The position numbers were made by a program, and so were the translations under genes. Of a DNA stretch of 64,000 bases, positions 14,310 to 40,010 are shown piece by piece. Source of the DNA: Torpedo marmorata (taxonomy: Eukaryota); NCBI GenBank assembly GCA_977017645.1, contig OZ360235.1:92628001-92692000 (forward strand), in the 5' to 3' direction. Within the stretch, counting starts at the first letter, position 1, and every line of letters starts with the position of its first letter. The notes under the pieces are model-generated. The model did no database searches and was not told the origin of the DNA. It saw only the letters and a list, made by a program, of their open reading frames with translations.

Positions 14310-14545
14310 GAACATGAGCAGAGAACAGTACAGGCCCTTTGGCCCACAATGTTGTGATAACCGATACAAACCTACTCCACTATCAATCTAACCCTTCTCT
14401 TCCTCACAGCCCATAACCCTCTGCTTTTCTGAAGTCCATGTGCCGATGTCAGATTCTTTTGAATGTCCCAATTGTACCAGCCTCCAATACCACTCCCAGC
14501 AATGCATTCCAGGCACCCACCACTCGAGTAAAAAACCTACCGAGG
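14310..14545 (-). mobile_element. Short CR1 3' fragment abutting the minisatellite
   Basis: FFTRVVGAWNALLGVVLEAGTIGTFKR; 3' UTR homologous to 11680-11880. Confidence 0.85.
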
Positions 14546-14546
14546 G

Positions 14547-17500
14547 CATTTGTTGAGCCCTCCCCCCATGGAACATTTGTTGACCCTCCCCCCCATGCAA
14601 CATTTGTTGACCCCTCCCCCCCATGGAACATTTATTGACCCCTCCCCCCCATGCAACATTTATTAACGCCACCCCCATGCAACATTTGTTGACCCCTCCC
14701 CCCCATGGAACATTTATTGACCCCTCCCCCCCATGCAACATTTATTAACGCCACCCCCATGGAACATTTGTTGACCCCTCCCCCCAAGGAACATTTGTTG
14801 ACGCCTCCCACCCACGGAATATTTGTTGACCCTCCCCCCCCATGGAACATTTGTTGACCCCTCCCCCCACGGAACATTTGTTGACCCCTCCCCCACAGAA
14901 CATTTGTTGAACCCTCCCCCACGGAACATTTGTTGACCCCTCCCCCACGGAACATTTGTTGACCCCTCCCCCCACGGAACATTTGTTGACCCCTCCCCCC
15001 CATGGAACATTTGTTGACCCCTCCCCCACGGAACATTTGTTGAACCCTCCCCCACGGAACATATGTTGAACCCTTCCCCATGGAACATTTGTTGACCCCT
15101 CCCCCCATGGAACATTTGTTGACCCCTCCCCCCATGGAACATTTGTTGACCCCTCCCCCCATGGAACATTTGTTGACCCCTTCCCCATGGAACATTTGTT
15201 GACCCCTCCCCCACGGAACATTTGTTGACCCCTCCCCCACGGAACATTTGTTGAACCCTCCCCCCCATGGAACATTTATTGACCCCTCCCCCAATGGAAC
15301 ATTTATTGACCCCATGGAACATTTGTTGACCTCTCCCTCCCCATGGAATATTTATTGACCCCCCATGGAACTTTTGTTGACCCTCCCCACCCCCATGGAA
15401 TATTCATTGACCCCTCCCCCCATGGAACATTTATTGACCCTTCCCCACCATGTAACATTTATTGAACCCTCCCCCCATGGAATATTTGTTGACACTCTCT
15501 CCCCCCCATGGAACATTTGTTGACCCCTCCCCCCCCATGGAACATTGGTTGACGCCCACCTCCCCCCCCCATGGAACATTGGTTGACGCCCACCTCCCCC
15601 CCCATGGAACATTGGTTGACGCCCACCTCCCCCCCAAAGGAACATTGGTTGACGCCCTCCCCCCACCATGGAACATTGGTTGACGCCCACCTCCCCCCCA
15701 TGGAACATTGATTGACACCCTTCCTCCCCCATGGAACATTTGTTGACCCCTCCCCCATGGAACATTTGTTGACCCCTCCCCCCATGGAACATTTGTTGAC
15801 CCCTCCCCCCATGGAACATTTGTTGACCCCTCCCCCATGGAACATTTGTTGACCCCTCCCCCCCAAGGAACATTTGTTGACCCCTCCCCCCATGGAACAT
15901 TTGTTGACCCTCCCCCCATGGAACATTTGTTGACCCCTCCCCCCCATGGAACATTTGTTGACCCCTCCCCCCATGGAACATTTGTTGACCCCTCCCCCCA
16001 TGGAACATTTGTTGACCCCTCCCCCCCATGGAACATTTGTTGACCCCTCCCCCACGGAACATTTGTTGACCCCTCCCCCACGGAACATTTGTTGAACCCT
16101 CCCCCACGGAACATTTGTTGTCCCCTCCCCCCATGGAACATTTGTTGACCCCTCCCCCCCATAGAACATTTGTTGACCCCTCCCCCCCATGGAACATTTG
16201 TTGACCCCTCCCCCCATAGAACATTTGTTTACCCCTCCCCCCCATGGAACATTTGTTTACCCCTCCCCCCCCATGGAACATTTGTTGACCCCTCCCCCCA
16301 TGGAACATTTGTTGACCCCCACCACAGAACATTTGTTGACCCCTCCCCCCATGGATCATTTGTTGACCCCTCCCCCCATGGAACATTTGTTGACCCCTCC
16401 CCCCATGGAACATTTGTTGACCCCTCCCCCCATGGATCATTTGTTGACCCCTCCCCCCCCATGGAACATTTGTTGACCCCTCCCCCATGGAACATTTGTT
16501 GACCCCTCCCCCCATGGAACATTTGTTGACCCTCCCCACCATGTAACATTTATTGAACCCTCCCCCCCATGGAACATTTGTTGACCCCCCCATTGAACAT
16601 TTGTTGACCCCCCCATTGAACATTTGTTGACCCCCCCATTGAACATTTGTTGACTCCCTCCATGGAACATTTGTTGACCTCTCCCTCCCCATGGAATATT
16701 TATTGACCCCCCATGGAACTTTTGTTGACCCTCCCCACCCCCACGGAAAATTTATTGACCCCCTCCCCCCATGGAATATTTATTGACCCCTCCTCCCCAT
16801 GGAATATTTATTGACCCCCTCCTCCCCATGGAATATTCATTGACCCCTCCCCCATGGAACATTTATTGACCCTTCCCCACCATGTAATATTTATTGAACC
16901 CTCCCCCCCATGGAATATTTGTTGACACTCTCTCCCCCCCATGGAACATTTGTTCACCCCTCCCCCATGGAACATTTGTTGACCCCTCCCCCATGGAACA
17001 TTTGTTGACCCTTCCCCCCCATGGAACACTTGTTGACCCCTCCCCCCATGGAACATTTGTTGACCCCTCCCCCCACCATGGAACATTGGTTGACCCCCAC
17101 CCCCCCCCATGGAACATTGGTTGACGCCCACCTCCCCCCCCATGGAACATTGGTTGACGCCCTCCCCCCAAAGGAACATTGGTTGACGCCCTCCCCCCAC
17201 CATGGAACATTGGTTGACCTCCACCCACCCCAAGGAACATTGGTTGACCCCCACCCACCCCATGGAACATTGGTTGACGCCCACCTCCCCCATGGAACAT
17301 TGGTTGACACCCTCCCCCCCCATGGAACATTTGCTGACCCCTCCCCCATGGAACATTTGTTGACCCCTCCCCCCATGGAACATTTGCTGACCCTCCCCAT
17401 GGAACATTTGTTGACCCCTCCCCCCCCATGGAACATTTGCTGACGCTCCACCAATTGGAACATTTGTTGACCCCTCCCCCATGGAACATTTGATGACCCC

Positions 17501-20500
17501 TCCCCCCATGGAACATTTGTTGACCCCTCCCCCCCATGGAACATTTGTTGACCCCTCCCCCCCATGGAACATTTGTTGACCCCTCCCCCATGGAATATTC
17601 ATTGACCCCTCCCCCCATGGAACATTTATTAACCCCTCCCCCAATGGAACATTTATTGACCCTTCCCCACCATGTAACATTTGTTGACCCCTCCCCCCAT
17701 GGAACATTTGTTGACCCCTCCCCCCAAGGAACATTTGTTGACCCCTCCCCCCAAGGAACACTTGTTGATCCCTCCCCCATGGAACATTTGTTGACCCCTC
17801 CCCCCCAAGGAACATTGGTTAACGCCCTCCCCCCACCATGGAACATTGGTTGAACCCCACCCCCCCATGGAACATTCGTTGACGCCAACCTCCCCCCCCA
17901 TGGAACATAGGTTGATGCCCTCCCCCCCAAGGAACATTGGTTGACACCCTCCCCCCACCATGGAACATTGGTTGACCCCCACCCCCCCATGGAACATTGG
18001 ATGACGCCCACCTCCCCCATGGAACATTGGTTGACACCCTCCCCCCCCATGGAACATTGGTTGACACCCTCCCTCCCCATGGAACATTGGTTGACACCCT
18101 CCCCCCCCATGGTACATTGGTTGACACCCTCCCCCCCATGGAACATTGGTTGACCCTACCCCCCCATGGAACATTGGTTGATGCCCACCCCCCCCATGGA
18201 ACATTGGTTGACACCCTCCCCCCCATGGTACATTGGTTGACACCCTCCCTCCATGGAACATTTGTTGACCCCTCCCACCATGCAACATTTGTTGACCCCT
18301 CAAACCACGCAACATTTGTTGACCCCTCACCCCACGGAACATTTGTTGACCCTTCCCCCCCATGGAACATTTGTTGACCCTCTCTCCCCCCCCATGGAAC
18401 ATTTGTTGACCCCTCCCCCCCATGGAACATTTGTTGAACCTCTCCCCCCCACATGGAACATTTGTTGACCCCCTCCTCCCCCCATGCAACATTTGTTGAC
18501 CCTTCCCCCAATGGAACATTGGTTGACACCTCCCCCCCATGGAACATTTGCTGACCCTCCCCATGGAACATTTGTTGACCCTCCACCCCATGGAACATTT
18601 GTTGACCCCTCCCCCATGGAAGATTTGTTGACCCCTCCCCCATGTAACATTTGTTGACCCCTCCCCCCCATGGAACATTTGCTGACCCCTCACCCCATGG
18701 AACATTTGTTGACCCCTCACCCCATGGAACATTTGTTGACCCCTCCCCCCATGGAACATTTGTTGACCCTTACCCCCATGGAACATTTGTTGACCCCTCC
18801 CCCCATGGAACATTTGTTGACCCCTCCCCCATGGAACATTTGTTGACCCCTCCCCACATGGAACATTTGTTGACCCCTCCCCCATGGAACATTTGTTGAC
18901 CCTTCCCCCCCATGGAACATTTGTTGACCCCTCCACCATGGAACATTTGTTGACCCCTCCCCCCATGGAACATTTGTTGACCCCTCCCCCATGGAACATT
19001 TGTTGACCCTTCCCCCCCATGGAACATTTGTTGACCCCTCCCCCCAAGGAGCATTTGTTGACCCCTCACCCCATGGAACATTTATTGACCCCCCCCATGG
19101 AACATTTGTTGACCCGTCCCCCCATGGAACATTTGTTGACCCCTCCCCCAAGGAACATTTGTTGACCCCTCCCCCCCATGGAACATTTGTTGACCCGTCC
19201 CCCCATGGAACATTTGTTGACCCCTCCTCCCCATGGAACATTTGTTGACCCCTCCCCCCCATGGAACATTTGTTGACCTCTCCCTCCCCATGGAATATTT
19301 ATTGACCCCCCCATGGAACTTTTGTTGACCCTCCCCACCCCCACGGAAAATTTATTGACCCCTCCCCCCATGGAATATTTATTGACCCCCTCCTCCCCAT
19401 GGAATATTCGTTGACCCCTCCCCCCATGGAATATTCGTTGACCCCTACCCCCAATGGAACATTTATTGACCCTTCCCCACCATGTAACATTTATTGAACC
19501 CTCCCCCCCATGGAACATTTGTTGCCCCTCCCCCATGGAACATTTGTTGCCCTTCCCCCCCATGGAACATTGGTTGACCCCCTCTCCCCCATGGAACATT
19601 GGTTGACCCCCCCCACCATGGAACATTGGTTGACCCCCTCTCCCCCACGGAACATTTGTTGACCCCCCCATGGAACATATATTGACCCGCCCCACCCCCA
19701 TGGAATATTTATTGAACCGTCCCCTCATGGAACATTTAGTGACCCCTCCCCCATGGAACATTTGTTGACCCGAACCCCCATGGAACATTTGTTTACCCCT
19801 CCCCCCCATGGAACATTTGTTTACCCCTCCCCCCCATGGAACATTTGTTGACGCCTCCCCCCCATGGAACATTTGTTGACCCCTCCCCCATGGAACATTT
19901 GTTGACCCCTCCCCCATGGAACATTTGTTTACCCCTCCCCCCATGGAACACTTGTTGACCCCCCATGGAACATTTGTTTACCACTCCCCCCATGGAACAT
20001 TTGTTGACCCCTCCCCCCCATGGAACATTTATTGACCCCTCCCCCATGGAACATTTGTTGACCCGAACCCCCATAGAACATTTGTTTACCCCTCCCCCCC
20101 ATGGAACACTTGTTGACCCCCCCATGGAACATTTGTTTACCCCTCCCCCCCATGGAACATTTGTTTACCCCTCCCCCCATGGAACATTTGTTGACGCCTC
20201 CCCCCCATGGAACATTTGTTGACCCCTCCCCATGGAACATTTGTTGACCCCTCCCCCATGGAACATTTGTTGACCCTCCCCCATGGAACATTTGTTGACC
20301 CTCCCCCATGGAACATTTGTTGACCCGAACCCCCATGGAACATTTGTTGACCCCTCCCCCCATGGAACATTTGTGGACCCCTCCCCCCCATGGAACATTT
20401 ATTGACCCCTCCCCCATGGAACATTTGTTGACCCCTCCCCCCATGGAACATTTGTTTACCCCTCCCCCCCATGGAACATTTGTTTACCCCTCCCCCCATG

Positions 20501-23500
20501 GAACATTTGTTGACGCCTCCCACCCACGGAATATTTGTTGATGCCTCCCACCCACGGAATATTTGTTGACCCTCCCCCCCATGGCACATTTGTTGACCCC
20601 TCCCCCCCATGGAACATTTGTTGACCCCTCCCCCCCAATTCAACATTTGTTGACCCCTCCCCCCATGGAACATTTGCTGACCCTCCCACCATGGAATATT
20701 TGCTACCCCTCCCCCATGGAACATTTGCTGACCCTCCCCCCACGGAACATTTGTTGACCTCTCCCCCACGGAACATTTGTTGACCCCTCCCCCCCATGGA
20801 ACATTTGTTGACCCCTCCCCCATGGAAAATTTTTGACCCCTCCCCCATGGAACATTTGTTGACCCCTCCCCCCATGGAACATTTGTTGACCCCTCCCCCC
20901 CATGGAACATTTGTTGACCCCTCCCCCATGGAACATTTGTTGACCCCTCCCCCATGGAACATTTGTTGAACCCTCCCCCCATGAAACATTTGTTGACCCC
21001 TCCCCCCATGGAACATTTGTTGACCCCTCCCCCCATGGAACATTTGTTGACCCCTCCCCCCATGGAACATTTGTTCAACCCTCCCCCCATGGAACATTTG
21101 TTGACCCCTCCCCCCATGGAACATTTGTTGACCCCTCCCCCATTGAACATTTGTTGATCCTCCCCCCATTGAACATTTGTTGACCCTCCCCCCATTGAAC
21201 ATTTGTTGACCCTCCCCCCATGGAACATTTGTTGACCCTCCCCCCATGGAACATTTGTTGACCCTCCCCCCATGGAACATTTGTTGACCCTCCCCCCATG
21301 GAACATTTGTTGACCCACCCCCCATGGAACATTTGTTGACCCTCCCCCCATGGAACATTTGTTGACCCTCCCCCCATGGAACATTTGTTGACCCCTCCCC
21401 CCCATGGAACATTTGTTTATCCCTCCCCCCATGGAACATTTGTTGACCCCTCCCCATTGAACATTTGTTGACCCTCCCCCCATGGAACATTTGTTGACCC
21501 TCCCCCCATGGAACATTTGTTGACCCTCCCCCCATGGAACATTTGTTGACCCTCCCCCCATGGAACATTTGTTGACCCCTCCCCCCCATGGAACATTTGT
21601 TGACCCCTCCCCCCCATGGAACATTTGTTGACCCCTCCCCCCCATAGAACATTTGTTGACCCCTCCCTCCCCATGGAATATTTATTGACCCCCATGGAAC
21701 ATTTGTTGACCCCTCCCCCCCATGGAACATTTGTTGACCCCTCCCCCCATGGATCATTAGTTGACCCCTCCCTCCCCATGGAATATTTATTGACCCCCAT
21801 GGAACATTTGTTGACCCCTCCCCCATGGAACATTTGTTGACCCCTCCCCCCATGGAACATTTGTTGACCCCTCCCCCCATGGATCATTTGTTGACCCCTC
21901 ACCCCATGGAACATTTGTTGACCTCTCCCTCCCCATGGAATATTTATTGACCCCCCATGGAATATTTATTGACCCCTCCCCATGGAATATTTATTGACCC
22001 CCATGGAACTTTTGTTGACCCTCCCCACCCCCACGGAAAATTTATTGACCCCTCCCCCCCATGGAATATTTATTGACCCCTCCCCCCATGGAACATTTGT
22101 TGACCCCTCCCCCCATGGAACATTTGTTGACCCCTCCCCCCATGGAACATTTGTTCAACCCTCCCCCCATGGAACATTTGTTGACCCCTCCCCCCATGGA
22201 ACATTTGTTGACCCCTCCCCCATTGAACATTTGTTGATCCTCCCCCCATTGAACATTTGTTGACCCTCCCCCCATGGAACATTTGTTGACCCTCCCCCCA
22301 TGGAACATTTGTTGACCCTCCCCCCATGGAACATTTGTTGACCCTCCCCCCATGGAACATTTGTTGACCCCTCCCCCCATGGAACATTTGTTGACCCCTC
22401 CCCCGTGGAACATTTGTTGACCCCTCCCCCCCCATAGAACATTTGTTGACCCCTCCCCCCATGGAATATTTGTTGACCCCTCCCCCCATGGATCATTTGT
22501 TGACCCTCCCCCCCATGGAACATTTGTTGACCCCTCCCCCCATGGAACATTTGTTGACCCCTCCCCCCATGGATCATTTGTTGACCCCTCCCCCCATGGA
22601 TCATTAGTTGACCCCTCCCTCCCCATGGAATATTTATTGACCCCCATGGAACATTTGTTGACCCCTCCCCCATGGAACATTTGTTGACCCCTCCCCCCAT
22701 GGAACATTTGTTGACCCCTCCCCCCATGGATCATTTGTTGACCCCTCACCCCATGGAACATTTGTTGACCTCTCCCTCCCCATGGAATATTTATTGACCC
22801 CTCCCCATGGAATATTTATTGACCCCAATGGAACTTTTGTTGACCCTCCCCACCCCCACGGAAAATTTATTGACCCCTCCCCCCCATGGAATATTTATTG
22901 ACCCCTCCTCCCCATGGAATATTCGTTGACCCCTCCCCCATGGAACATTTATTGACCCCTCCCCCAATGGAACATTTATTGACCCTTCCCCACCATGTAA
23001 CATTTATTGAACCCTCCCCCCCATGAACATTTGTTGACCCCCCCATTGAACATTTGTTGACTCCCCCCATGGAACATTTGTTGACCCCTCCCTCCATGGA
23101 ACATTTGTTGACCCCATGGAACATTTGGTGACCTCTCCCTCCCCATGGAATATTTATTGACCCCCCATGGAACTTTTGTTGACCCTCCCCACCCCCACGG
23201 AAAATTTATTGACCCCCTCCCCCCATGGAATATTTATTGACCCCCTCCTCCCCATGGAATATTCATTGACCCCTCCCCCCATGGAACATTTATTGACCCT
23301 TCCCCACCATGTAACATTTATTGAACCCTCCCCCCATGGAATATTTGTTGACACTCTCTCCCCCCCATGGAACATTTGTTGACCCCTCCCCCCATGGAAC
23401 ATTTGTTGACCCCTCCCCCCATGGAACATTTGTTGACCCCTCCCCCCATGGAACATTTGTTGACCCTTCCCCCCCATGGAACATTTGTTGACCCCTCTCC

Positions 23501-26500
23501 CCACCATGGAACATTGGTTGACCCCCACCCCCCCCATGGAACATTGGTTGACGCCCACCTCCCCCCCCATGGAACATTGGTTGACGCCCTCCCCCCAAAG
23601 GAACATTGGTTGACGCCCTCCCCCCACCATGGAACATTGGTTAACCTCCACCCACCCCAAGGAACATTGGTTGACCCCCACCCACCCCATGGAACATTGG
23701 TTGACGCCCACCTCCCCCATGGAACATTGGTTAACCTCCACCCACCCCATGGAACATTGGTTGACGCCCACCCCCCCCATGGAACATTGGTTGACGCCCA
23801 CCCCCCCCATGGAACATTGATTGACACCCTCCCTCCCCCATGGAACATTTGTTGACCCCTCACCCCATGGAACATTGGTTGACGCCCACCCCCCCCATGG
23901 AACATTGGTTGACGCCCACCCCCCCATGAAACATTGATTGACACCCTCCCTCCCCCATGGAACATTTGTTGACCCCTCCCCCCATGGAACATTTGTTGAC
24001 CCCTCCCCCCATGGAACATTAGTTGACCCCTCCCCCCCATGGAACATTTGTTGACCCCTCCCCCCATGGAACATTTGTTGACCCCTCCCCCCATGGAACA
24101 TTTGTTGGCCCTCTCCCCCCCATGGAACATTTGTTGACCCCTCCCCCATGGAACATTTGTTGACCCCTCCCCCAATGGAACATTGGTTGACACCTCCCCC
24201 CCCCATGGAACATTTGTTGACCCCTCCCCCCATGGATCATTTGTTGACCCCTCCCCCCATGGAACATTTGTTGGCCCTCTCCCCCCCATGGAACATTTGT
24301 TGACCCCTCCCCCCATGGAACATTTGTTGACCCCTCCCCCAATGGAACATTGGTTGACACCTCCCCCCCCCATGGAACATTTGCTGACCCCTCCCCCATG
24401 GAACATTTGTTGACCCCTCCCCCCATGGAACATTTGCTGACCCTCCCCATGGAACATTTGTTGACCCCTCCCCCCCCATGGAACATTTGTTGACCCCTCC
24501 CCCCATGGAACATTTATTGACCCTTCCCCACCATGTAACATTTGTTGACCCCTCCCCCCATGGATCATTTGTTGACCCCTCCCCCCATGGATCATTAGTT
24601 GACCCCTCCCTCCCCATGGAATATTTATTGACCCCCATGGAACATTTGTTGACCCCTCCCCCATGGAACATTTGTTGACCCCTCCCCCCATGGAACATTT
24701 GTTGACCCCTCCCCCCATGGATCATTTGTTGACCCCTCACCCCATGGAACATTTGTTGACCTCTCCCTCCCCATGGAATATTTATTGACCCCTCCCCATG
24801 GAATATTTATTGACCCCAATGGAACTTTTGTTGACCCTCCCCACCCCCACGGAAAATTTATTGACCCCTCCCCCCCATGGAATATTTATTGACCCCTCCT
24901 CCCCATGGAATATTCGTTGACCCCTCCCCCCATGGAACATTTATTGACCCCTCCCCCAATGGAACATTTATTGACCCTTCCCCACCATGTAACATTTATT
25001 GAACCCTCCCCCCCATGAACATTTGTTGACCCCCCCATTGAACATTTGTTGACTCCCCCCATGGAACATTTGTTGACCCCTCCCTCCATGGAACATTTGT
25101 TGACCCCATGGAACATTTGGTGACCTCTCCCTCCCCATGGAATATTTATTGACCCCCCATGGAACTTTTGTTGACCCTCCCCACCCCCACGGAAAATTTA
25201 TTGACCCCCTCCCCCCATGGAATATTTATTGACCCCCTCCTCCCCATGGAATATTCATTGACCCCTCCCCCCATGGAACATTTATTGACCCTTCCCCACC
25301 ATGTAACATTTATTGAACCCTCCCCCCATGGAATATTTGTTGACACTCTCTCCCCCCCATGGAACATTTGTTGACCCCTCCCCCCATGGAACATTTGTTG
25401 ACCCCTCCCCCCATGGAACATTTGTTGACCCCTCCCCCCATGGAACATTTGTTGACCCTTCCCCCCCATGGAACATTTGTTGACCCCTCTCCCCACCATG
25501 GAACATTGGTTGACCCCCACCCCCCCCATGGAACATTGGTTGACGCCCACCTCCCCCCCCATGGAACATTGGTTGACGCCCACCCCCCAAAGGAACATTG
25601 GTTGACGCCCTCCCCCCACCATGGAACATTGGTTAACCTCCACCCACCCCAAGGAACATTGGTTGACCCCCACCCACCCCATGGAACATTGGTTGACGCC
25701 CACCTCCCCCATGGAACATTGGTTAACCTCCACCCACCCCATGGAACATTGGTTGACGCCCACCCCCCCCATGGAACATTGGTTGACGCCCACCCCCCCC
25801 ATGGAACATTGATTGACACCCTCCCTCCCCCATGGAACATTTGTTGACCCCTCACCCCATGGAACATTGGTTGACGCCCACCCCCCCCATGGAACATTGG
25901 TTGACGCCCACCCCCCCCATGAAACATTGATTGACACCCTCCCTCCCCCATGGAACATTTGTTGACCCCTCCCCCCATGGAACATTTGTTGACCCCTCCC
26001 CCCATGGAACATTAGTTGACCCCTCCCCCCCATGGAACATTTGTTGACCCCTCCCCCCATGGAACATTTGTTGACCCCTCCCCCCATGGAACATTTGTTG
26101 GCCCTCTCCCCCCCATGGAACATTTGTTGACCCCTCCCCCATGGAACATTTGTTGACCCCTCCCCCAATGGAACATTGGTTGACACCTCCCCCCCCCATG
26201 GAACATTTGTTGACCCCTCCCCCCATGGATCATTTGTTGACCCCTCCCCCCATGGAACATTTGTTGGCCCTCTCCCCCCCATGGAACATTTGTTGACCCC
26301 TCCCCCCATGGAACATTTGTTGACCCCTCCCCCAATGGAACATTGGTTGACACCTCCCCCCCCCATGGAACATTTGCTGACCCCTCCCCCATGGAACATT
26401 TGTTGACCCCTCCCCCCATGGAACATTTGCTGACCCTCCCCATGGAACATTTGTTGACCCCTCCCCCCCCATGGAACATTTGTTGACCCCTCCCCCCATG

Positions 26501-29500
26501 GAACATTTATTGACCCTTCCCCACCATGTAACATTTATTGAACCCTCCCCCCATGGAATATTTGTTGACACTCTCTCCCCCCCATGGAACATTTGTTGAC
26601 CCCTCCCCCACGGAACATTTGTTGACCCCTCTCCCCACCATGGAACATTGGTTGACCCCCACCCCCCCCATGGAACATTGGTTGACGCCCACCTCCCCCC
26701 CCAAAGGAACATTGGTTGACGCCCTCCCCCCACCATGGAACATTGGTTGACCCCCACCCACCCCATGGAACATTGGTTGACGCCCACCTCCCCCATGGAA
26801 CATTGGTTGACACCCTCCCCCCCCATGGAACATTGGTTGACCTCCCCCCACCATGGAACATTGGTTGACCCCCACCCACCCCATGGAACATTGGTTGACA
26901 CCCTCCCCCCCCCATGGAACATTGGTTGACGCCCACCCACCCCCATGGAACATTGGTTGACGCCCACCCCCCCCATGGAACATTGGTTGACGCCCACCCC
27001 CCCCATGGAACATTGATTGACACCCTCCCTCCCCCATGGAACATTTGTTGACCCCTCCCCCCATGGAACATTTGTTGACCCCTCCCCCCATGGAACATTT
27101 GTTGACCCCTCCCCCCATGGAACATTTGTTGACCCCTCCCCCCATGGAACATTTGTTGGCCCTCTCCCACCCATGGAACATTTGTTGACCCCTCCCCCCA
27201 TGGAACATTTGTTGGCCCTCTCCCCCCCATGGAACATTTGTTGACCCCTCCCCCCCATGGAACATTTGTTGACCCCTCCCCCCATGGAACATTTGTTGAC
27301 CCCTCCCCCATGGAACAGTTGTTGACCCCTCCCCCATGGAACATTTGATGACCCCTCCCCCCATGGAACATTTGTTGACCCCTCCCCCCATGGAACATTT
27401 GTTGACCCCTCCCCCCCATGGAACATTTGTTGACCCCTCCCCCCCATGGAACATTTGTTGATCCTCCCCCCATGGAACATTTGTTGACCCCTCCCCATGG
27501 AACAGTTGTTGACCCCTCCCCCATGGAACATTTGTTGACCCCTCCCCCCCATGGAACATTTGTTGACCCCTCCCCCATGGAATATTAATTGACCCCTCCC
27601 CCAATGGAACATTTATTGACCCTTCCCCACCATGTAACATTTGTTGACCCCTCCCCCCCAATTGAACATTTGTTGACCCCTCCCACCATGGAATATTTGC
27701 TACCCCTCCCCCATGGAACATTTGTTGACCCCTCCCCCCACGGAACATTTGTTGACCCCTCCCCCACGGAACATTTGTTGACCCCTCCCCCCCCATGGAA
27801 CATTTGTTGACCCTCTTCCCCCCCCATGGAACATATGTTGACCCCTCCCCCCACGGAACATTTGTTGAACCCTCCCCCCCCATGGAACATTTGTTGACCC
27901 TCTTCCCCCCCCATGGAACATATGTTGACCCCTCCCCCCACGGAACATTTGTTGACCCCTCCCCCACGGAACATTTGTTGACCCCTCCCCCCCCATGGAA
28001 CATTTGTTGACCCTCTTCCCCCCATGGAACATATGTTGACCCCTCCCCCCACGGAACATTTGTTGACCCCTCCCCCCCCATGGAACATTTGTTGACCCTC
28101 TTCCCCCCCCATGGAACATATGTTGACCCCTCCCCCCACGGAACATTTGTTGAACCCTCCCCCACGGAACATTTGTTGACCCCTCCCCCCACGGAACATT
28201 TGTTGACCCCTCCCCCCACGGAACATTTGTTGACCCCTCCCCCCACGGAACATTTGTTGACCCCTCCCCCCATGGAACATTTGTTGACCCCTCCCCCATG
28301 GAACATTTGTTGACCCCTCCCCCATGGAACATTTGTTGACCCCTCCCCCCATGGAACATTTGTTGACCTCCCCCCATAGAACATTTGTTGACCCCTCCCC
28401 CCCATGGAACATTTGTTGACCCCTCCCCCCATGGAACATTTGTTGACCCCTCCCCCCATAGAACATTTGTTGACCCCTCCCCCATGGAACATTTGTTGAC
28501 CCGAACCCCCCATGGAACATTTGTTGACCCGAACCCCCCATGGAACATTTGTTGACCCCTCCCCCCCATTGAACATTTGTTGACGCCCTCCCCCAAAGGA
28601 ACATTGGTTGACCCCCACCCACCCCATGGAACATTGGTTGACGCCCACATCCCCCATGGAACATTGGTTGACGCCCTCCCCCCCCATGGAACATTGGTTG
28701 ACGCCCACCCCCCCATGGAACATTGGTTGACGCCCACCCCCCCCATGGAACATTGGTTGACGCCCACCCCCCCATGGAACATTGATTGACACCCTCCCTC
28801 CCCCATGGAACATTTGTTGACCCCTCCCCCCCATGGAACATTTGTTGACCCCTCCCCCCCATGGAACATTTGTTGACCCCTCCCCCCCATGGAACATTTG
28901 TTGACCCCTCCCCCCATGGAACATTTGTTGACCCCTCCCCCCATGGAACATTTGTTGACCCCTCCCCCCCATGGAACATTTGTTGACCCCTCCCCCCCAT
29001 GGAACATTTGTTGACCCCCTCCTCCCCCCATGGAACATTTGTTGACCCTTCCCCCAATGGAACATTGGTTGACACCTCCCCCCCCATGGAACATTTGCTG
29101 ACCCCTCCCCCATGGAACATTTGTTGACCCCTCCCCCCATGGAACATTTGCTGACCCCTCCTCCCCCATGGAACATTTGCTGACCCTCCACCAATTGGAA
29201 CATTTGTTGACCCCTCCCCCATGGAACATTTGATGACCCCTCCCCCCATGGAACATTTGTTGACCCCTCCCCCCCATGGAACATATGTTGACCCCTCCCC
29301 CCCATGGAACATTTGTTGACCCCTCCCCCATGGAATATTCATTGACCTCTCCCCCCATGGAACATTTATTGACCCCTCCCCCCATGGAACATTTATTGAC
29401 CCTTCCCCACCATGTAACATTTGTTGACCCCTCCCCCCATGGAACATTTGTTGACCCCTCCCCCCAAGGAACATTTGTTGACCCCTCCCCCCAAGGAACA

Positions 29501-32500
29501 CTTGTTGATCCCTCCCCCATGGAACATTTGTTGACCCCTCCCCCCCAAGGAACATTGGTTAACGCCCTCCCCCCACCATGGAACATTGGTTGACCCCCAC
29601 CCCCCCCATGGAACATTGGTTGACGCCCACCTCCCCCCCCCATGGAACATAGGTTGATGCCCTCCCCCCCAAGGAACATTGGTTGACACCCTCCCACCAC
29701 CATGGAACATTGGTTGACCCCCACCCCCCCATGGAACATTGGATGACGCCCACCTCCCCCATGGAACATTGGTTGACACCCTCCCCACCATGGAACATTG
29801 GTTGACACCCTCCCTCCCCATGGAACATTGGTTGACACCCTCCCCCCCCATGGTACATTGGTTGACACCCTCCCCCCCATGGAACATTGGTTGACCCTAC
29901 CCCCCCATGGAACATTGGTTGATGCCCACCCCCCCCATGGAACATTGGTTGACACCCTCCCCCCCCATGGTACATTGGTTGACACCCTCCCCCCATGGAA
30001 CATTTGTTGACCCCTCCCACCATGCAACATTTGTTGACCCCTCAAACCACGCAACATTTGTTGACCCCTCACCCCACGGAACATTTGTTGACCCTTCCCC
30101 CCCATGGAACATTTGTTGACCCTCTCTCCCCCCCCCATGGAACATTTGTTGACCCTCTCTCCCCCCCATGGAACATTTGTTGACCCTCTCTCCCCCCCAT
30201 GGAACATTTGTTGACCCCTCCCCCCATGGAACATTTGTTGAACCTCTCCCCCCCACATGGAACATTTGTTGACCCCCTCCTCCCCCCATGGAACATTTGT
30301 TGACCCTTCCCCCAATGGAACATTGGTTGACACCTCCCCCCCCATGGAACATTTGCTGACCCTCCCCATGGAACATTTGTTGACCCTCCACCCCATGGAA
30401 CATTTGTTGACCCCTCCCACCATACAACATTTGTTGACCCCTCAAACCACGCAACATTTGTTGACCCCTCCCCCCATGGAACATTTGTTGACCCCTCACC
30501 CCAAGGAACATTTGTTGACCCCTCCCCCATGGAAGATTTGTTGACCCCTCCCCCATGTAACATTTGTTGACCCCTCCCCCCATGGAACATTTGCTGACCC
30601 CTCACCCCATGGAAAATTTGTTGACCCCTCCCCCCATGGAACATTTGTTGACCCCTCCCCCATGGAACATTTGTTGACCCTTACCCCCATGGAACATTTG
30701 TTGACCCCTCCCCCATGGAACATTTGTTGACCCCTCCCCCATGGAACATTTGTTGACCCCTCCCCACATGGAACATTTGTTGACCCCTCCCCCATGGAAC
30801 ATTTGTTGACCCTTCCCCCCCCATGGAACATTTGTTGACCCCTCCCCCATGGAACATTTGTTGACCCCTCCCCCCATGGAACATTTGTTGACCCCTCCCC
30901 CATGGAACATTTGTTGACCCTTCCCCCCCATGGAACGTTTGTTGACCCCTCCCCCCAAGGAGCATGTGTTGACCCCTCACCCCATGGAACATTTGTTGAC
31001 CCCTCCCCCCATGGAACATTTGTTGACCCGTCCCCCCATGGAACATTTGTTGACCCCTCCTCCCCATGGAACATTTGTTGACCCCTCCCCCCCATGGAAC
31101 ATTTGTTGACCTCTCCCTCCCCATGGAATATTTATTGACCCCCCATGGAACTTTTGTTGACCCTCCCCACCCCCACGGAAAATTTATTGACCCCCTCCCC
31201 CATGGAATATTTATTGACCCCCTCCTCCCCATGGAATATTCGTTGACCCCTCCCCCCATGGAATATTCGTTGACCCCTACCCACCATGTAACATTTATTG
31301 AACCCTCCCCCCCATGGAACATTTGTTGCCCCTCCCCCATGGAACATTTGTTGCCCCTCCGCCCCATGGAACATTGGTTGACCCCCTCTCCCCCATGGAA
31401 CATTGGTTGACCCCCCCCACCATGGAACATTGGTTGACCCCCTCTCCCCCACGGAACATTTGTTGACCCCCCCATGGAACATATATTGACCCGCCCCACC
31501 CCCATGGAATATTTATTGAACCGTCCCCCCATGGAATATTTAGTGACCCCTCCCCCATGGAACATTTGTTGACCCGAACCCCCATGGAACATTTGTTGAC
31601 CCCTCCCCCCATGGAACATTTGTGGACCCCTCCCCCCCATGGAACATTTATTGACCCCTCCCCCCTGGAACATTTGTTGACCCGAACCCCCATGGAACAT
31701 TTGTTTACCCCTCCCCCCATGGAACACTTGTTGACCCCCCCATGGAACATTTGTTTACCCCTCCCCCCATGGAACATTTGTTTACCCCTCCCCCCCATGG
31801 AACATTTGTTGACCCCTCCCCCCATGGAACATTTGTTGACCCCTCCCCCCATGGAACATTTGTGGACCCCTCCCCCCATGGAACATTTATTGACCCCTCC
31901 CCCCTGGAACATTTGTTGACCCGAACCCCCATGGAACATTTGTTTACCCCTCCCCCCATGGAACACTTGTTGACCCCCCCATGGAACATTTGTTTACCCC
32001 TCCCCCCATGGAACATTTGTTTACCCCTCCCCCCCATGGAACATTTGTTGACGCCTCCCCCCCATGGAACATTTGTTGACCCCTCCCCCATGGAACATTT
32101 GTTGACCCCTCCCCCATGGAACATTTGTTTACCCCTCCCCCCATGGAACATTTGTTTACCCCTCCCCCCCATGGAACATTTGTTTACCCCTCCCCCCCAT
32201 GGAACATTTGTTGACCCTCCCCCATGGAACATTTGTTGACCCGAACCCCCATGGAACATTTGTTGACCCCTCCCCCCATGGAACATTTGTTGACCCCTCC
32301 CCCCATGGAACATTTGTGGACCCCTCCCCCCATGGAACATTTATTGACCCCTCCCCCATGGAACATTTGTTTACCCCTCCCCCCCATGGAACACTTGTTG
32401 ACCCCCCCATGGAACATTTGTTTACCCCTCCCCGTCATGGAACATTTGTTTACCCCTCCCCCCATGGAACATTTGTTGACGCCTCCCCCCCATGGAACAT

Positions 32501-35500
32501 TTGTTGACCCCTCCCCCATGGAACATTTGTTGACCCCTCCCCCATGGAACATTTGTTGACCCTCCCCCATGGAACATTTGATGACCCGAACCCCCATGGA
32601 ACATTTGTGGACCCCTCCCCCCCATGGAACATTTGTTGACCCCTCCCCCCATGGAACAGTTATTGACCCCTCCCCCATGGAACATTTGTTGACCCCTCCC
32701 CCCATGGATCATTTGTTTACCCCTCCCCCCCATGGAACATTTGTTTACCCCACCCCCCCATGGAACATTTGTTGACGCCTCCCACCCACGGAATATTTGT
32801 TGACCCTCCCCCCCCATGGCACATTTGTTGACCCCTCCCCCCCTGGAACATTTGTTGACCCCTCCCCCCCTGGAACATTTGTTGACCCCTCCCCCCCAAT
32901 TGAACATTTGTTGACCCCTCCCCCCATGGAACATTTGCTGACCCCTCCCCCCATGGAACATTTGTTGACCCCTCCCCCATGGAACATTTGTTGACCCCTC
33001 CCCCATGGAACATTTGTTGACCCCTCCCCCATGGAACATTTGTTGACCCCTCCCCCCATGGAACATTTGTTGACCCCTCCCCCCATGGAACATTTGTTGA
33101 CCCCTCCCCCCATGGAACATTTGTTGACCCCTCCCCCATGGAACATTTGTTGACCCCTCCCCCCATGGAACATTTGTTGACCCCTCCCCCCATGGAACAT
33201 TTGTTGACCCCTCCCCCCCATGGAACATTTGTTGACCCCATGGAACATTTGTTGACCTCTCCCTCCCCATGGAATATTTATTGACCCCCCCATGGAACTT
33301 TTGTTGACCCTCCCCACCCCCACGGAAAATTTATTGACCCCTCCCCCCCATGGAATATTTATTGACCCCTCCTCCCCATGGAATATTTGTTGACCCCTCC
33401 CCCCATGGAACATTTATTGATCCCTCCCCCCATGGAACATTTATCGACCCTTCCCCACCATATAACATTTATTGAACCCTCCCCCCCATGGAACATTTGT
33501 TGACCCCCCCCCATTGAACATTTGTTGACCCCCCCATTGAACATTTGTTGACTCCCCCCATGGAACATTTGTTGACCCCTCACCCCATGGAACATTTGTT
33601 GACCTCTCCCTCCCCATGGAATATTTATTGACCCCCCATGGAACTTTTGTTGACCCTCCCCACCCCCACGGAAAATTTATTGACCCCCTCCCCCCATGGA
33701 ATATTTATTGACCCCCTCCTCCCCATGGAATATTCATTGACCCCTCCCCCCCATGGAACATTTATTGACCCTTCCCCACCATGTAACATTTATTGAACCC
33801 TCCCCCCCATGGATCATTTGTTGATCCCTCCCCCATGGAATATTTGTTGACACTCTCCCCCCCATTGAACATTTGATGACCCCTCCCCCCATGGAACATT
33901 TGTTGACCCGAACCCCCATGGAACATTTGTTGACCCCTCACCCCATGGAACATTTGTTGACCCTTCCCCCCCATGGAACACTTGTTGACCCCTCCCCCCA
34001 TGGAACATTTGTTGACCCGAACCCCCATGGAACATTTGTTGACCCCTCCCCCCATGGAACATTTGTTGACCCCTCCCCCCATGGAACATTTGTTGACCCC
34101 TCCCCCCCAAGGAACATTTGTTGACCCCTCCCCCCCAAGGAACATTGGTTGACTCCCTCCCCCCACCATGGAACATTGGTTGACCCCCACCCCCCCATGG
34201 AACATTGGTTGACGCCCACCTCCCCCCCCATGGAACATTGGTTGACGCCCTCCCCCCAAAGGAACATTGGTTGACGCCCTCCCCCCACCATGGAACATTG
34301 GTTGACCTCCACCCACCCCAAGGAACATTGGTTGACCCCCACCCACCCCATGGAACATTGGTTGACGCCCACCTCCCCCATGGAACATTGGTTGACACCC
34401 TCCCCCCCCATGGAACATTGGTTGACCCTACCCCCCCCATGGAACATTGGTTGACCCCCACCCCACCATGGAACATTGGTTGACGCCCACCCCCCCATGG
34501 AACATTGGTTGACGCCCACCCCCCCCATGGAACATTGATTGACACCCTCCCTCCCCCATGGAACATTTGTTGACCCCTCCCCCCCATGGAACATTTGTTG
34601 ACCCCTCCCCCAACGAACATTTGTTGACTCCTCCCCCCATGGAACATTTGTTGACCCCTCCCCCCATGGAACATTTGTTGACCCCTCCCCCCCATGGAAC
34701 ATTTGTTGACCGCTCCCCCCCATGGAACATTTATTGACCCCTCCCACCTTGCAACATTTATTGACCCCTCCCCCCACGCAACATTTGTTGACCCCTCCAC
34801 CCCATGGAACATTTGTTGGCCCTCTCCCCCCCCATGGAACATTTGTTGACCCCCTCCTCCCCCCATGGAACATTTGTTGACCCTTCCCCCAATGGAACAT
34901 TGGTTGACCCCTCCCCCATGGAACATTTGCTGACCCTCTTCCCTCCCCCCCATGGAACATTTGCTGACCCTCCACCCATTGGAACATTTGTTGACCCCTC
35001 CCCCATGGAACATTTGTTGACCCCTCCCCCCAATGGAACATTTGTTGACCCCTCCCCCATGGAACATTTGTTGACCCCTCCCCCCCATGGAACATTTGTT
35101 GACCCCTCCCCCCCATGGAACATTTGTTGACCCCTCCCCCCCATGGAACATTTGTTGACCCCTCCCCCATGGAATATTCGTTGACTCCTCCCCCATGGAA
35201 CATTTGTTGACCCCTCCCCCCAAGGAACACTTGTTGATCCCTCCCCCATGGAACATTTGTTGACCCCTCCCCCCCATGGAACATAGATTGACGCCCTCCC
35301 CCCAAGGAACATTGGTTGACACCCTCCCCCCACCATGGAACATTGGTTGACCCCCACCCCCCCATGGAACATTGGATGACGCCCACCTCCCCCATGGAAC
35401 ATTGGTTGACACCCTCCCCCCCCCATGGAACATTGGTTGACTCCCTCCCCCCCCATGGAACATTGGTTGACCCTACCCCCCCCATGGAACATTGGTTGAC

Positions 35501-38500
35501 CCCCACCCCCCCATGGAACATTGGTTGACTCCCACCCCCCCATGGAACATTGGTTGACGCCCACCCCCCCCATGGAACATTGGTTGACACCCTCCCCCCC
35601 ATGGTACATTGGTTGACACCCTCCCCCCCCATGGAACATTTGTTGACCCCTCCCACCATGCAACATTTGTTGACCCCTCACCCCACGGAACATTTGTTGA
35701 CACCTCTCCCCCCCATGGAACATTTGTTGACCCTTCCCCCAATGGAACATTGGTTGACACCTCCCCCCCATGGAAGATTTGTTGACCCCTCCCCATGTAA
35801 CATTTGTTGACCCCTCCCCCCCATGGAACATTTGTTGACCCCTCCCCCCATGGAACATTTGCTGACCCCTCCCCCATGGAAAATTTGTTGACCCCTCCCC
35901 CATGGAACATTTGTTGACCCCTCCCCCATGGAACATTTGTTGACCCCTCCCCCATGGAACATTTGTTGACCCCTCCCCCATGGAACATTTGTTGACCCTT
36001 CCCCCCATGGAACATTTGTTGACCCCTCACCCCATGGAACATTTGTTGACCCCTCCCCCATGGAACATTTGTTGACCCTCCCCCCATGGAACATTTGTTG
36101 ACCCCTCCCCCCATGGAACATTTGTTGACCCCTCACCCCATGGAACATTTGTTGACCACTCCCCCCATGGAACATTTGTTGAACCGTCCCCCCATGGAAC
36201 ATTTGTTGACCCGTCCCCCCCCATAGAACATTTGTTGACCCCTACCCCATGGAACATTTGTTGACCCCTCCCCCATGGAACATTTGTTGACCCGACCCCC
36301 CCCCCATAGAACATTTGTTGACCCCTCCCCCATGGAACATTTGTTGACCCATCCCCCCCATGGAACATTTGTTGACCCGTCCCCCCCCATAGAACATTTG
36401 TTGACCCGTCCCCCCATGGAACATTTGTTGACCCCTCCTCCCCATGGAACATTTGATGACCCCTCCCCCCCATGGAACATTTGTTGACCTCTCCCTCCCC
36501 ATGGAATATTTATTGACCCCCTCATGGAACTTTTGTTGACCCTCCCCACCCCCACGGAAAATTTATTGACCCCTCCCCCCATGGAATATTTATTGACCCC
36601 CTCCTCCCCATGGAATATTCGTTGACCCCTACCCCCAATGGAATATAAGTTGACCCCTACCCCCAATGGAACATTTATTGACCCTTCCCCACCATGTAAA
36701 ATTTATTGAACCCTCCCCCCCATGGAACATTTGTTGCCCCTCCCCCCCCATGGAACATTGGTTGACCCCCTCTCCCCCACGGAACATTTGTTGACCCCCC
36801 CATGGAACATAAATTGACCCGCCCCACCCCCATGGAATATTTATTGAACCGTCCCCCCCATGGAATATTTAGTGACCCCTCCCCATGGAACATTTGTTGA
36901 CCCCTCCCCCCATGGAACATTTGTGGACCCCTCCCCCCATGGAACATTTGTTGACCCTTCCCCCCATGGAACATTTGTTGACCCTTCCCCCCATGGAACA
37001 TTTGTTGACCCATCCCCCCCATGGAACATTTGTTGACCCCTCCCCCCCATGGAACATTTGTTGACCCCTCCCCCCCATGGAACATTTGTTGACCCCTCCC
37101 CCCCATGGAACATTTGTTGACCCCTCCCCCCAAGGAACACTTGTTGATCCCTCCCCCATGGAATATTTGTTGACCCCTCCCCCCATTGAACATTTGTTGA
37201 CCCTCCCCCCCATGGAACATTGGTTGACACAACCCCCCCCATGGAACATTGGTTGACACAACCCCCCCCATGGAACATTGGTTGACACCTCCCCCCCCCA
37301 TGGAACATTGGTTGACGCCCTCCCCCCCCATGGAACATTGGTTGTCATCTCCCCCCCATGGAACATTGATTGACGCCCTCCCCCTCCCCATGGAACATTG
37401 GTTGAGACCTCCCCCCCATGGAACATTGGTTGACCCCTCCCCCCCCATGGAACATTGGTTGACGCCCTCCCCCCCCCATGGAACATTGGTTGACATCTCC
37501 CCCCCATGGAACATTGATTGACGCCCTCCCCCCCATGGAACATTGGTTGACCCTTCCCCCCCATGGAACATTTGTTGACCCTTCCCCCCCATGGAACATT
37601 TGTTGACCCCTCCCCCCATGGAACATTTGTTGACCCTCCCCCCATGGAACATTTATTGACCCCCCATGGAACATTTGTTGACCCTCCCCACAGAATATTT
37701 GTTGACCCTCCCCCCCATGGAACATTTGTTGACCCTCCCCACCCCCATGGAATATTTATTGACCCCTCCCCCCATGGAACATTTGTTGACCCCTCCCCCC
37801 ATGGAACTTTTGTTGACCCCTCCCCCCATGGAACATTTATTGACCCCCCATGGAATATTTGTTGACCCCTCCCCCATTGAACATTTGTTGACCCTCCCCA
37901 CCCCCATGAAATATTTATTGACCCCTCCCCCATGGAACATTTGTTGACCCCCTCCTCCCATGGAACATTTGTTGACCCCTCCCCCCATGGAACATTTGTT
38001 GACCCCTCCCCCATGGAACATTTGTTGACCCTTACCCCCATGGAACATTTGTTGACCCCTCCCCCATGGAACATTTGTTGACCCCTCCCCCATGGAACAT
38101 TTGTTGACCCCTCCCCACATGGAACATTGGTTGACCCCTCCCCCATGGAACATTTGTTGACCCTTCCCCCCCATGGAACATTTGTTGACCCCTCCCCCAT
38201 GGAACATTTGTTGACCCCTCCCCCCATGGAACATTTGTTGACCCCTCCCCCATGGAACATTTGTTGACCCTTCCCCCCCATGGAACATTTGTTGACCCCT
38301 CCCCCATGGAACATGTGTTGACCCCTCCCCCCAAGGAGCATGTGTTGACCCCTCACCCCCATGGAACATTTGTTGACCCCTCCCCCCCATGGAACATTTG
38401 TTGACCCGTCCCCCCATGGAACATTTGTTGACCCCTCCCCCCAAGGAACATTTGTTGACCCGTCCCCCCCATAGAACATTTGTTGACCCGTCCCCCCATG

Positions 38501-40010
38501 GAACATTTGTTGACCCCTCCTCCCCATGGAACATTTGTTGACCCCTCACCCCCATGGAACATTTGTTGACCTCTCCCTCCCCATGGAATATTTATTGACC
38601 CCCCCATGGAACTTTTGTTGACCCTCCCCCCCATGGAACATTTGTTGACCCCTCCCCCCCATGGAACATTTGTTGACCCCTCCCCCCAAGGAACACTTGT
38701 TGATCCCTCCCCCATGGAATATTTGTTGACCCCTCCCCCCATTGAACATTTGTTGACCCTCCCCCCCCATGGAACATTGGTTGACACAACCCCCCCCATG
38801 GAACATTGGTTGAGACCTCCCCCCCATGGAACATTGGTTGACACCTCCCCCCCCCATGGAACATTGGTTGACGCCCTCCCCCCCCATGGAACATTGGTTG
38901 ACATCTCCCCCCCATGGAACATTGATTGACGCCCTCCCCCTCCCCTTGGAACATTGGTTGAGACCTCCCCCCCATGGAACATTGGTTGACCCCTCCCCCC
39001 CCATGGAACATTGGTTGACGCCCTCCCCCCCCATGGAACATTGGTTGACATCTCCCCCCCATGGAACATTGATTGACCCAACCCCCCATGGAACAGTTAT
39101 TGACCCCTCCCCCCATGGAACATTTGTTGACCCTTCCCCCCCATGGAACATTTGTTGACCCTTCCCCCCCATGGAACATTTGTTGACCCCTCCCCCCATG
39201 GAACATTTGTTGACCCCTCCCCCCATGGAACATTTGTTGACCCTCCCCCCATGGAACATTTATTGACCCCCCATGGAACATTTGTTGACCCTCCCCACAG
39301 AATATTTGTTGACCCTCCCCCCCATGGAACATTTGTTGACCCTCCCCACCCCCATGGAATATTTATTGACCCCTCCCCCCATGGAACATTTGTTGACCCC
39401 TCCCCCCATGGAACTTTTGTTGACCCCTCCCCCCATGGAACATTTATTGACCCCCCATGGAATATTTGTTGACCCCTCCACCCATTGAACATTTGTTGAC
39501 CCTCCCCACCCCCATGAAATATTTATTGACCCCTCCCCCATGGAACATTTGTTGACCCCCTCCTCCCATGGAACATTTGTTGACCCCTCCCCCCATGGAA
39601 CATTTGTTGACCCTCCCCACCCCCATGGAACATTTGTTGACCCTCCCCCCCCATGGAACATTTGTTGACCCTCCCCCCATTGAACATTTGTTGACCCCTC
39701 CCCATGGAACATTTGTTGACCCTCCCCACCCCCATGGAAAATTTGTTGACCCTCCCCCCATGGAACATTTGTTGACCCTCCCCCCCATGGAACATTTGTT
39801 GACCCTCCCCCCCCATGGAACATTTGTTGACCCTCTCCCCCCATGGAACATTTGTTGACCCTCCCCCCCCATGGAACATTTGTTGACCCTCTCCCCCCAT
39901 GGAACATTTGTTGACCTTCCCCCGCCTCCCCATGGAACATTTGTTGACCCCTCCCCCCCATTTAACATTTGTTGACCCCTCCCCCATTGAACATTTGTTG
40001 ACCCCCCCCC
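14547..40010. repeat. Giant minisatellite, ~25.5 kb, unit ~24-30 bp, consensus CATGGAACATTTGTTGACCCCTCCCCC(C); roughly 900-950 units by length
   Basis: Uninterrupted tandem array, C-rich + strand and G-rich - strand; variant units (TTGGTTGACGCCCAC, TTTATTGAC, TTTGTTTAC) occur in blocks. Confidence 0.99.
22546..26535. repeat. Near-identical ~1.99-kb tandem duplication inside the array
   Basis: Identical or near-identical ORF translations offset by 1991-1993 bp (22634/24625, 23167/25159, 23367/25359, 24019/26012, 24183/26176). Confidence 0.92.

What the first reader, a model, noticed from the sequence alone, without database searches (positions are those of the whole stretch)
14547..40010. 25-kb strand-asymmetric minisatellite with dense G-quadruplex/i-motif potential
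Seen: nearly every unit has two G-runs on the minus strand (GGGGG(G)-A-GGGG), so any two neighbouring units supply four G-tracts. This gives several hundred potential G4s in tandem and i-motifs on the + strand. No TE interrupts the array although the flanks are saturated with TEs, implying recent or ongoing expansion. It is very long for a minisatellite with such a short unit. Established: G4-forming minisatellites are unstable and impede replication forks. Inference: fragile site, recombination or R-loop platform, or a lineage-specific satellite; no function is demonstrated.
Basis: partly seen in the sequence, partly recalled or inferred. Interest (0 to 1): 0.7.

Follow-up and report, generated by a model that had tools for sequence, protein, structure and literature searches.

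The report
Long G-rich minisatellite at ray Prickle1
A 27-letter DNA unit is repeated about 925 times at one single place in a ray genome, likely inside the long first intron of the Prickle1 gene; it is predicted to be able to fold into four-stranded DNA, but longer repeat arrays without that ability lie nearby, so it is most likely an ordinary repeat.

Summary
The array is real: 14547-40010, 27-bp unit, about 925 copies, no insertion, found at this locus only (569 of 569 genome matches at up to 2 mismatches). It shows nested block duplications, 0.1-2.6% diverged. It lies 6 Mb from the end of a 98.7-Mb scaffold of a ray, 102 kb upstream of the first coding exon of Prickle1 and probably inside a ~198-kb first intron, G-rich strand sense. 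G4 potential is plausible in vitro: pairs of units give loops of 1, ~16, 1 nt. But only 1 canonical motif exists, and 44 of ~924 units carry three tracts with 1-nt loops; the yeast papers tie G4-driven instability to short loops. Length, skew and lack of insertions are ordinary here: 3 of 4 other arrays followed out ran 34, >=44 and >=90 kb with little G4 signal. Not tested: folding, allele variation, transcription. One 2-kb duplication could be an assembly artefact. Verdict: new member of a known kind (GC-rich distal minisatellite), probably neutral. The scan has noted similar arrays before, in this genome, a shark and a primate (unchecked notes).

The parts
14547..40010 (.). Single-locus minisatellite, 27-bp unit (range 20-34), about 925 copies, C-rich on +, G6-A-G4 on -; 304 distinct unit variants
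   Evidence: single locus
22546..26528 (.). Near-perfect 1.99-kb tandem block duplication (72 units); 1 substitution and 2 single-C length differences; very recent duplication or assembly artefact
17295..20260 (.). 3-kb block repeated 11.77 kb downstream (29060-32118), 2.0% substitutions
29060..32118 (.). Second copy of the 3-kb block
37080..39597 (.). 0.9-kb block duplicated at 1.56 kb distance (37080-37989 and 38636-39597), 0.9% substitutions
14310..14541 (-). Old high-copy retroelement fragment (CR1-LINE-like 3' end; the label is recalled) that breaks off 5 bp before the array; 80-86% alike to the 39 other copies scored
40011..40753 (.). Mostly unique right flank; also present in run X1 as one 741-base contig with 23 other letters and 25 gap positions

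Best explanation
This is a single-locus GC-rich minisatellite near a chromosome end of a ray, built of variant 27-bp units and nested block duplications, likely grown without selection and likely lying in the first intron of a long Prickle1 transcript. Shown: unit, size, single locus, internal duplications of 0.3-3 kb at 0.1-2.6% divergence, variable C-run lengths, position between the Prickle1 coding exons and a distal CpG island. Inferred mechanism: C-run slippage makes unit variants; misaligned repair (unequal sister exchange or strand-invasion copying) then duplicates blocks of 10-110 units, which keeps the array young enough to hold no insertion. The strand skew follows from head-to-tail copies of a non-palindromic unit. 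Two neighbouring units probably can fold a 1-16-1-loop G4 as naked DNA, but this is likely a by-product and not the driver of growth.
For: Single locus: 339 of 339, 498 of 499 and 569 of 569 genome matches to three unit patterns lie in the window; the one outside match is a lone copy. Block duplications of graded age. Same behaviour without G4: of 4 sampled arrays followed out, 3 exceed this one as single TRF calls, 34.3 kb (32-bp base unit, G4Hunter -0.31), >=43.8 kb (33 bp, 0.37), >=90 kb (19 bp, 0.04); the fourth was 6.7 kb. 6 of 22 10-kb samples from the last 10 Mb of this scaffold hold an array >=1 kb, against 1 of 60 on other scaffolds, and all six are skewed by 0.30 or more. G-tracts are not visibly protected: 422 of 924 units have 2 or more non-C letters in the C block where the consensus has 1, and 106 of 921 have a single C-run. 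No coding signal: unit lengths are out of frame in 518 of 924 units and the longest ORF has no Pfam match. [quoted passage not shown]
Against: The array has the highest G4Hunter score among the arrays compared (1.15). 44 units have three G-tracts with 1-nt loops and 178 places have a run of >=7 G followed by one base and >=3 G; non-canonical short-loop G4s of this sort drive CEB1 instability (PMC5491262 passages), so a G4 contribution is not excluded. C-run positions show fewer substitutions than the spacer (0.031 against 0.050 per site), though alignment in homopolymers biases this low. Neutrality is inferred, not measured. The intronic position rests on one of 8 N-terminal extensions tested.
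Confidence: 0.78

Rival explanations
1. G4 or i-motif folding stalls forks in this array and is the main cause of its growth, making it a fragile site (CEB1-like).
For: 432 relaxed G4 motifs, mean G4Hunter 1.15; 44 three-tract 1-nt-loop motifs and 178 long-run motifs; one long loop is tolerated in vitro; rearrangement rate of CEB1 rises with motif number (PMC3486850 passage).
Against: 1 canonical motif only; 0 G6-N-G3-N-G3 motifs; central loop 16 nt in 339 of 467. Only short-loop G4s caused instability in yeast. Longer arrays with low G4 scores exist on the same scaffold.
Confidence: 0.1
2. The array is a length-variable regulatory element of Prickle1: transcribed as G-rich intron RNA from the distal promoter, it forms R-loops or RNA G4s, or acts as a dense cluster of factor sites, and so tunes the long isoform.
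For: Prickle1 is on the minus strand. The N-terminal extension of Mobula Prickle1 isoform X1 has its best match in 250 kb, both strands, in the distal CpG island, minus strand, ending at a GT donor (0 of 500 shuffles within the two islands, 2 of 40 over the whole region). The G-rich strand would be sense. The array holds 535 TGTTGAC and 414 CCCCTCCCC words, which resemble forkhead and Sp/KLF sites (recalled).
Against: 70-75 kb from either CpG island. Orientation is a one-in-two chance. 7 of 8 extensions tested gave no match in either island. CEB1 instability was not R-loop dependent in yeast (PMC7063842 passages). No sign of conservation. Short motifs in a repeat unit are multiplied automatically.
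Confidence: 0.06
3. A large part of the length is an assembly over-expansion.
For: The 1.99-kb tandem duplication differs by only 1 substitution and 2 single-C indels, which is at the level of read error or of two haplotypes. No reads spanning the array could be examined.
Against: All other duplicated blocks differ by 0.3-2.6% substitutions, there are 304 distinct unit variants and no N in the region. At most about 2 of 25.5 kb is in doubt on this evidence.
Confidence: 0.04
4. The unit was born from the LINE fragment that breaks off at the left edge of the array.
For: The element's similarity ends 5 bp before the first unit. The first 53 bases of the right flank align in order with the element's continuation at 35 of 53 columns (42 of 2000 shuffles as good).
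Against: Unit against continuation: 801 of 2000 shuffles score as well. A profile of 29 copies finds neither the unit nor the right flank, while it finds a control copy at E 4e-43. 66% is below the 80-86% of the left fragment. This concerns origin only and is compatible with the best explanation.
Confidence: 0.15

Closest known systems
Human GC-rich subtelomeric minisatellites CEB1 (39 nt), CEB25 (52 nt), HRAS1 (28 nt) (PMC3486850, passages and section 16)
   Same: Short GC-rich unit, head-to-tail, single locus, strand-skewed, distal position, G-tracts; CEB25 is intronic. A G-sextet followed by A and a further G-tract resembles part of the CEB1 motif (PMC5491262 passages).
   Different: The consensus unit has only two G-tracts, so a three-tier G4 needs two units and a ~16-nt loop; the CEB1 determinant (three triplets with 1-nt loops next to a sextet) occurs 0 times. 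The array is 25 kb and 6 Mb from the scaffold end, against 0.4-1.4 Mb from the telomere for those three.
G4 sequences with one long central loop (Guedin et al. 2010, PMC2995061, abstract and section 12)
   Same: Two 1-nt loops and one long loop; such sequences folded stably in K+.
   Different: That work used short oligonucleotides with three-G tracts and mostly thymine loops; here loops are A and a mixed 16-mer, in duplex chromosomal DNA. Nothing was measured here.
Simple tandem repeat-rich distal regions of shark and ray chromosomes (PMC10620051 and bioRxiv 10.1101/2025.06.08.657570, passages)
   Same: Enrichment of tandem repeats and GC toward chromosome ends; reproduced in this genome's sample.
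   Different: The passages seen quantify repeat content and describe no single array; this locus was not found described in searches (listings only).

Membership tests
Single-locus GC-rich minisatellite (VNTR) | Head-to-tail unit of 10-100 bp | tested here: met
   27 bp, 925.7 copies
Single-locus GC-rich minisatellite (VNTR) | One locus in the genome | tested here: met
   569 of 569 matches at up to 2 mismatches lie in the window; 498 of 499 for a 19-mer
Single-locus GC-rich minisatellite (VNTR) | Interspersed variant units | tested here: met
   304 distinct units among 921
Single-locus GC-rich minisatellite (VNTR) | GC above 50% and distal position | tested here: met
   GC 0.53-0.57; 6 Mb from the end of a 98.7-Mb scaffold; no telomere repeat seen in the last 300 bases, so the true distance may be larger
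Single-locus GC-rich minisatellite (VNTR) | Length varies between alleles | not testable with these tools
   Only one other run was listed and it is held as short contigs
G4-dependent unstable minisatellite (CEB1 / short-loop CEB25 type) | G4 motif within a single unit | tested here: not met
   765 of 921 units have two tracts, 49 have three or four; 1 canonical motif
G4-dependent unstable minisatellite (CEB1 / short-loop CEB25 type) | All loops short (<=3 nt); three triplets with 1-nt loops plus sextet | tested here: not met
   Central loop 15-23 nt, mode 16; 0 G6-N-G3-N-G3; 44 three-tract 1-nt-loop motifs in ~924 units; rule from PMC5491262
G4-dependent unstable minisatellite (CEB1 / short-loop CEB25 type) | K+-dependent folding in vitro | not testable with these tools
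   Needs CD and melting; folding programs gave no usable answer
G4-dependent unstable minisatellite (CEB1 / short-loop CEB25 type) | Instability that depends on G-tracts, helicase loss or G4 ligand | not testable with these tools
   Needs a yeast or cell assay
Satellite DNA family (multi-locus or very large block) | Several loci or blocks of hundreds of kb | tested here: not met
   One 25.5-kb locus
Satellite DNA family (multi-locus or very large block) | Regular higher-order repeat | tested here: not met
   Irregular duplications at offsets 0.85, 1.56, 1.99, 6.4, 11.8 and 16.9 kb
Transposon-derived minisatellite | Unit matches the flanking element and the element resumes after the array | tested here: inconclusive
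   Unit match not above chance (801 of 2000); right flank weak (42 of 2000); profile of 29 copies finds neither

The most novel reading that the evidence does not exclude
A 25-kb G-rich array, transcribed sense inside the ~198-kb first intron of Prickle1, forms a switch-region-like R-loop/G4 block in nascent RNA, and its allele length tunes output from the distal promoter of this planar-cell-polarity gene in rays.
Probability: 0.05. Interest if true: 0.6.

Novelty: new member of a known kind. Interest (0 to 1): 0.15.

Why it matters
As read here it matters little: it is one of many multi-kb distal arrays of this genome, useful at most as a single-locus marker or as a natural test of whether long-loop, two-unit G4s affect repeat stability, with neighbouring non-G4 arrays of similar size as controls. 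It would matter more if length variation in a Prickle1 intron changed expression of that gene.

Tried and rejected
Sequencing runs: 1 run listed (X1, DNA, contigs, share 0.06); no RNA holder listed. Laid on the right junction, X1 gives depth 9.4 on the unique flank and mean depth 1.6-10 on the three bins of repeat, with no record bridging the junction. The tool filters records and contigs drop variants, so this neither sizes the array in X1 nor shows it is shorter; it shows only that the flank and some unit-like sequence exist there. Its 1.4-3% difference in unique flank pieces suggests a relative, not a test of this assembly. Coding reading: the long minus-strand ORFs come from a stop-poor unit; rejected. 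Rfam: 0 matches at gathering score in the window. Hairpin: two units fold no better than shuffles (z +1.18; 176 of 200 shuffles as good). ViennaRNA with G4 option returned no G4; its model limits loop length (recalled), so this is uninformative. LINE origin: shuffle control gave no score for the observed or any shuffled sequence and is void; only the direct profile search there is used. Other genes between Prickle1 and the distal island: 450 of 654 candidate frames were scanned with Pfam; 3 of 450 had a hit at E<=0.001, two PET exons above cut-off and one KxDL below it; 204 shorter frames and frames in repeats were not scanned. A match that I first saw by eye between a skate transcript's N-terminus (P0166) and the distal island did not survive testing (252 of 500 shuffles); donor-anchored scans without stops found nothing. 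PDB search with the PET exon: 0 hits. The primary paper on loop length (Piazza 2015) was not held; its result is taken from the summaries in PMC5491262 and PMC7063842. No paper on PRICKLE1 promoters came up (listing only). No supplements were read.

Full report
Observation. TRF reports one array at 14547-40010, period 27, 925.7 copies, 86% matches. It is C-rich on the plus strand (skew about -0.45, GC about 0.54). Parsing gave 921 units of 304 kinds, mostly 26-31 bp, none with an insertion; 814 of 921 have two or more C-runs, and the commonest unit reads G6-A-G4 plus a 16-nt spacer on the minus strand.

G4 potential. With loops up to 7 or 12 nt there is 1 motif in the array; with loops up to 20 nt there are 432. 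Mean G4Hunter is 1.15. A three-tier G4 from consensus units needs two units, with loops 1, n, 1; n is 16 in 339 of 467 cases. Guedin et al. found that one long loop is tolerated beside two very short ones (PMC2995061, abstract and section 12), so folding of naked DNA is likely. In yeast, however, only short-loop G4s destabilised CEB25 variants, and CEB1 needed three G-triplets with 1-nt loops (PMC5491262, passages). Here 44 of about 924 units have three tracts with 1-nt loops, none has the CEB1-like sextet arrangement, and 178 places have a run of 7 or more G before the second tract. So the step from 'G4-capable' to 'G4-unstable' is not supported for the bulk of the array and stays open for a minority of units. 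i-motif formation was not tested.

Copy number in the genome. Three unit patterns were searched in the 6.2-Gb assembly: 339 of 339, 498 of 499 and 569 of 569 matches lie in this window. The single outside match is a lone copy in unrelated sequence. It is one locus, not a satellite family.

How it grew. A unit-level self-alignment shows nested duplications: 72 units in tandem at 0.1% substitutions, about 108 units 11.8 kb apart at 2.0%, 33 units 1.56 kb apart at 0.9%, and several 0.3-1.3-kb blocks at 0.3-2.6%. Units differ from the consensus by 4.6% substitutions on average plus C-run length changes. This pattern is what block duplication plus homopolymer slippage gives; the mechanism is inferred. 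The youngest duplication differs by one substitution and two single-C indels and could be an assembly artefact; the others cannot be.

Absence of transposons. The flanks are at least 65% repeat over 238.5 kb. Segments with a copy at 90% identity or more number 46, so 4.9 would be expected in 25.5 kb (P of none 0.007); at 97% or more there are 7, so 0.75 expected (P 0.47) (identities come from about 1.3 Mb of fetched sequence and are lower bounds, and a few segments are tandem repeats). The array is thus younger than most flanking elements, which fits its internal divergence; ongoing growth is not shown.

Is it unusual here? I sampled 100 stretches of 10 kb at regularly spaced positions of my choosing. 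8.1% of the sample is tandem repeat of period 10-100; 9 of 100 stretches hold an array of 1 kb or more and 5 of 100 are filled; 6 of 22 from the last 10 Mb of this scaffold against 1 of 60 on other scaffolds. Four arrays were followed out: 6.7 kb, 34.3 kb, at least 43.8 kb and at least 90 kb, each a single TRF call, with G4Hunter 0.38, -0.31, 0.37 and 0.04 and skew 0.24-0.39. Length, skew and lack of insertions therefore need no G4. Against this, the present array has the highest G4Hunter score of those compared. Human GC-rich and G4-bearing minisatellites also cluster at chromosome ends (PMC3486850 section 16), and tandem repeats rise toward chromosome ends in a stingray.

Gene context. The window is C48:92,628,001-92,692,000 of a 98.7-Mb scaffold. 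Pfam on 450 of 654 candidate frames in the low-copy parts of 264 kb found two PET-domain exons on the minus strand, 88 and 100 kb left of the window. The first is Prickle1: 98% to an electric-ray protein, 96% to Mobula and shark, 93% to skate, so the animal is most likely a ray. Low-repeat CpG islands lie at -61 to -60 kb and at +109.5 to +110.2 kb in window coordinates; a third, partly repetitive bin lies at +93.5 kb. The N-terminal extension of Mobula Prickle1 isoform X1 has its best match in 250 kb, both strands, in the distal island, on the minus strand, ending at a GT donor (0 of 500 shuffles in the two islands; 2 of 40 over the whole region); the other 7 of 8 extensions tested gave no such match. 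I put about two chances in three on the array lying in a ~198-kb first intron, 70-75 kb from either island, with the G-rich strand sense. That is the orientation expected to favour R-loops (recalled), but it is a one-in-two chance and no transcript evidence is in hand.

Origin. An old retroelement fragment, 80-86% like its best copies, stops 5 bp before the first unit. The unit matches the element's continuation no better than chance (801 of 2000 shuffles); the right flank matches it weakly (35 of 53 columns, 42 of 2000); a profile of 29 copies finds neither. Origin is unresolved.

Other genomes. One run (X1) holds the right flank at about 97% and a little unit-like sequence; it cannot size the array.

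Comparison and verdict. It meets four of five tests for a single-locus GC-rich minisatellite (allelic variation untestable), fails the sequence tests for the CEB1-type unstable class and for a satellite family, and works most likely as a neutral, duplication-grown array. No description of this locus was seen in the listings of searches. Earlier notes of this scan report similar arrays; they are unchecked and not counted as evidence. New member of a known kind; interest 0.15.

Noticed in passing
L082 (C48:51.00-51.01 Mb) and L083 (C48:56.00-56.01 Mb): Both 10-kb samples are filled by the same 10-bp repeat that contains the telomere hexamer, G-rich on + at 51 Mb and C-rich on + at 56 Mb. This head-to-head layout in mid-scaffold may mark a centromeric block or an old end-to-end fusion.
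   Followed up: no
L012:8179 to L013:4705 (window coordinates -81821 to -75295): A second 27-bp minisatellite without G-tracts (179 units, 93-95% matches) is split twice by the same ~850-bp element at what looks like the same position of the unit; possibly one insertion copied with the array.
   Followed up: partly
L011:301-417 and L012:2003-2137, minus strand: First two coding exons of Prickle1.
   Followed up: yes
L025:5500-6250 and L014:8750-10000: Two CpG islands with minus-strand GT donors, candidate alternative first exons of Prickle1; the distal one has two CCAAT boxes and a match to a Mobula isoform.
   Followed up: partly
L090 and L110 (C48:98.0 and 98.6 Mb); L111, L180-L183 (from 98.306 Mb): Large subterminal arrays: the same 52-bp repeat fills samples 0.6 Mb apart, with a 33-bp array of at least 43.8 kb between them.
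   Followed up: partly
L184-L191 with L136 (C11:259.96-260.05 Mb): A 19-bp array of at least 90 kb as one TRF call.
   Followed up: partly
L091, last 300 bases (end of C48): The scaffold ends in a G-rich ~39-bp minisatellite, not in telomere repeat.
   Followed up: no
window 1034-2275 and L023:4525-5766: Two retroelement (RVT_1) copies 87 kb apart are 98% or more alike, the youngest pair in the region.
   Followed up: no
window 14547-40010: CpG is depleted in the array (165 sites, observed/expected 0.11), so it is a poor substrate for CpG methylation.
   Followed up: no
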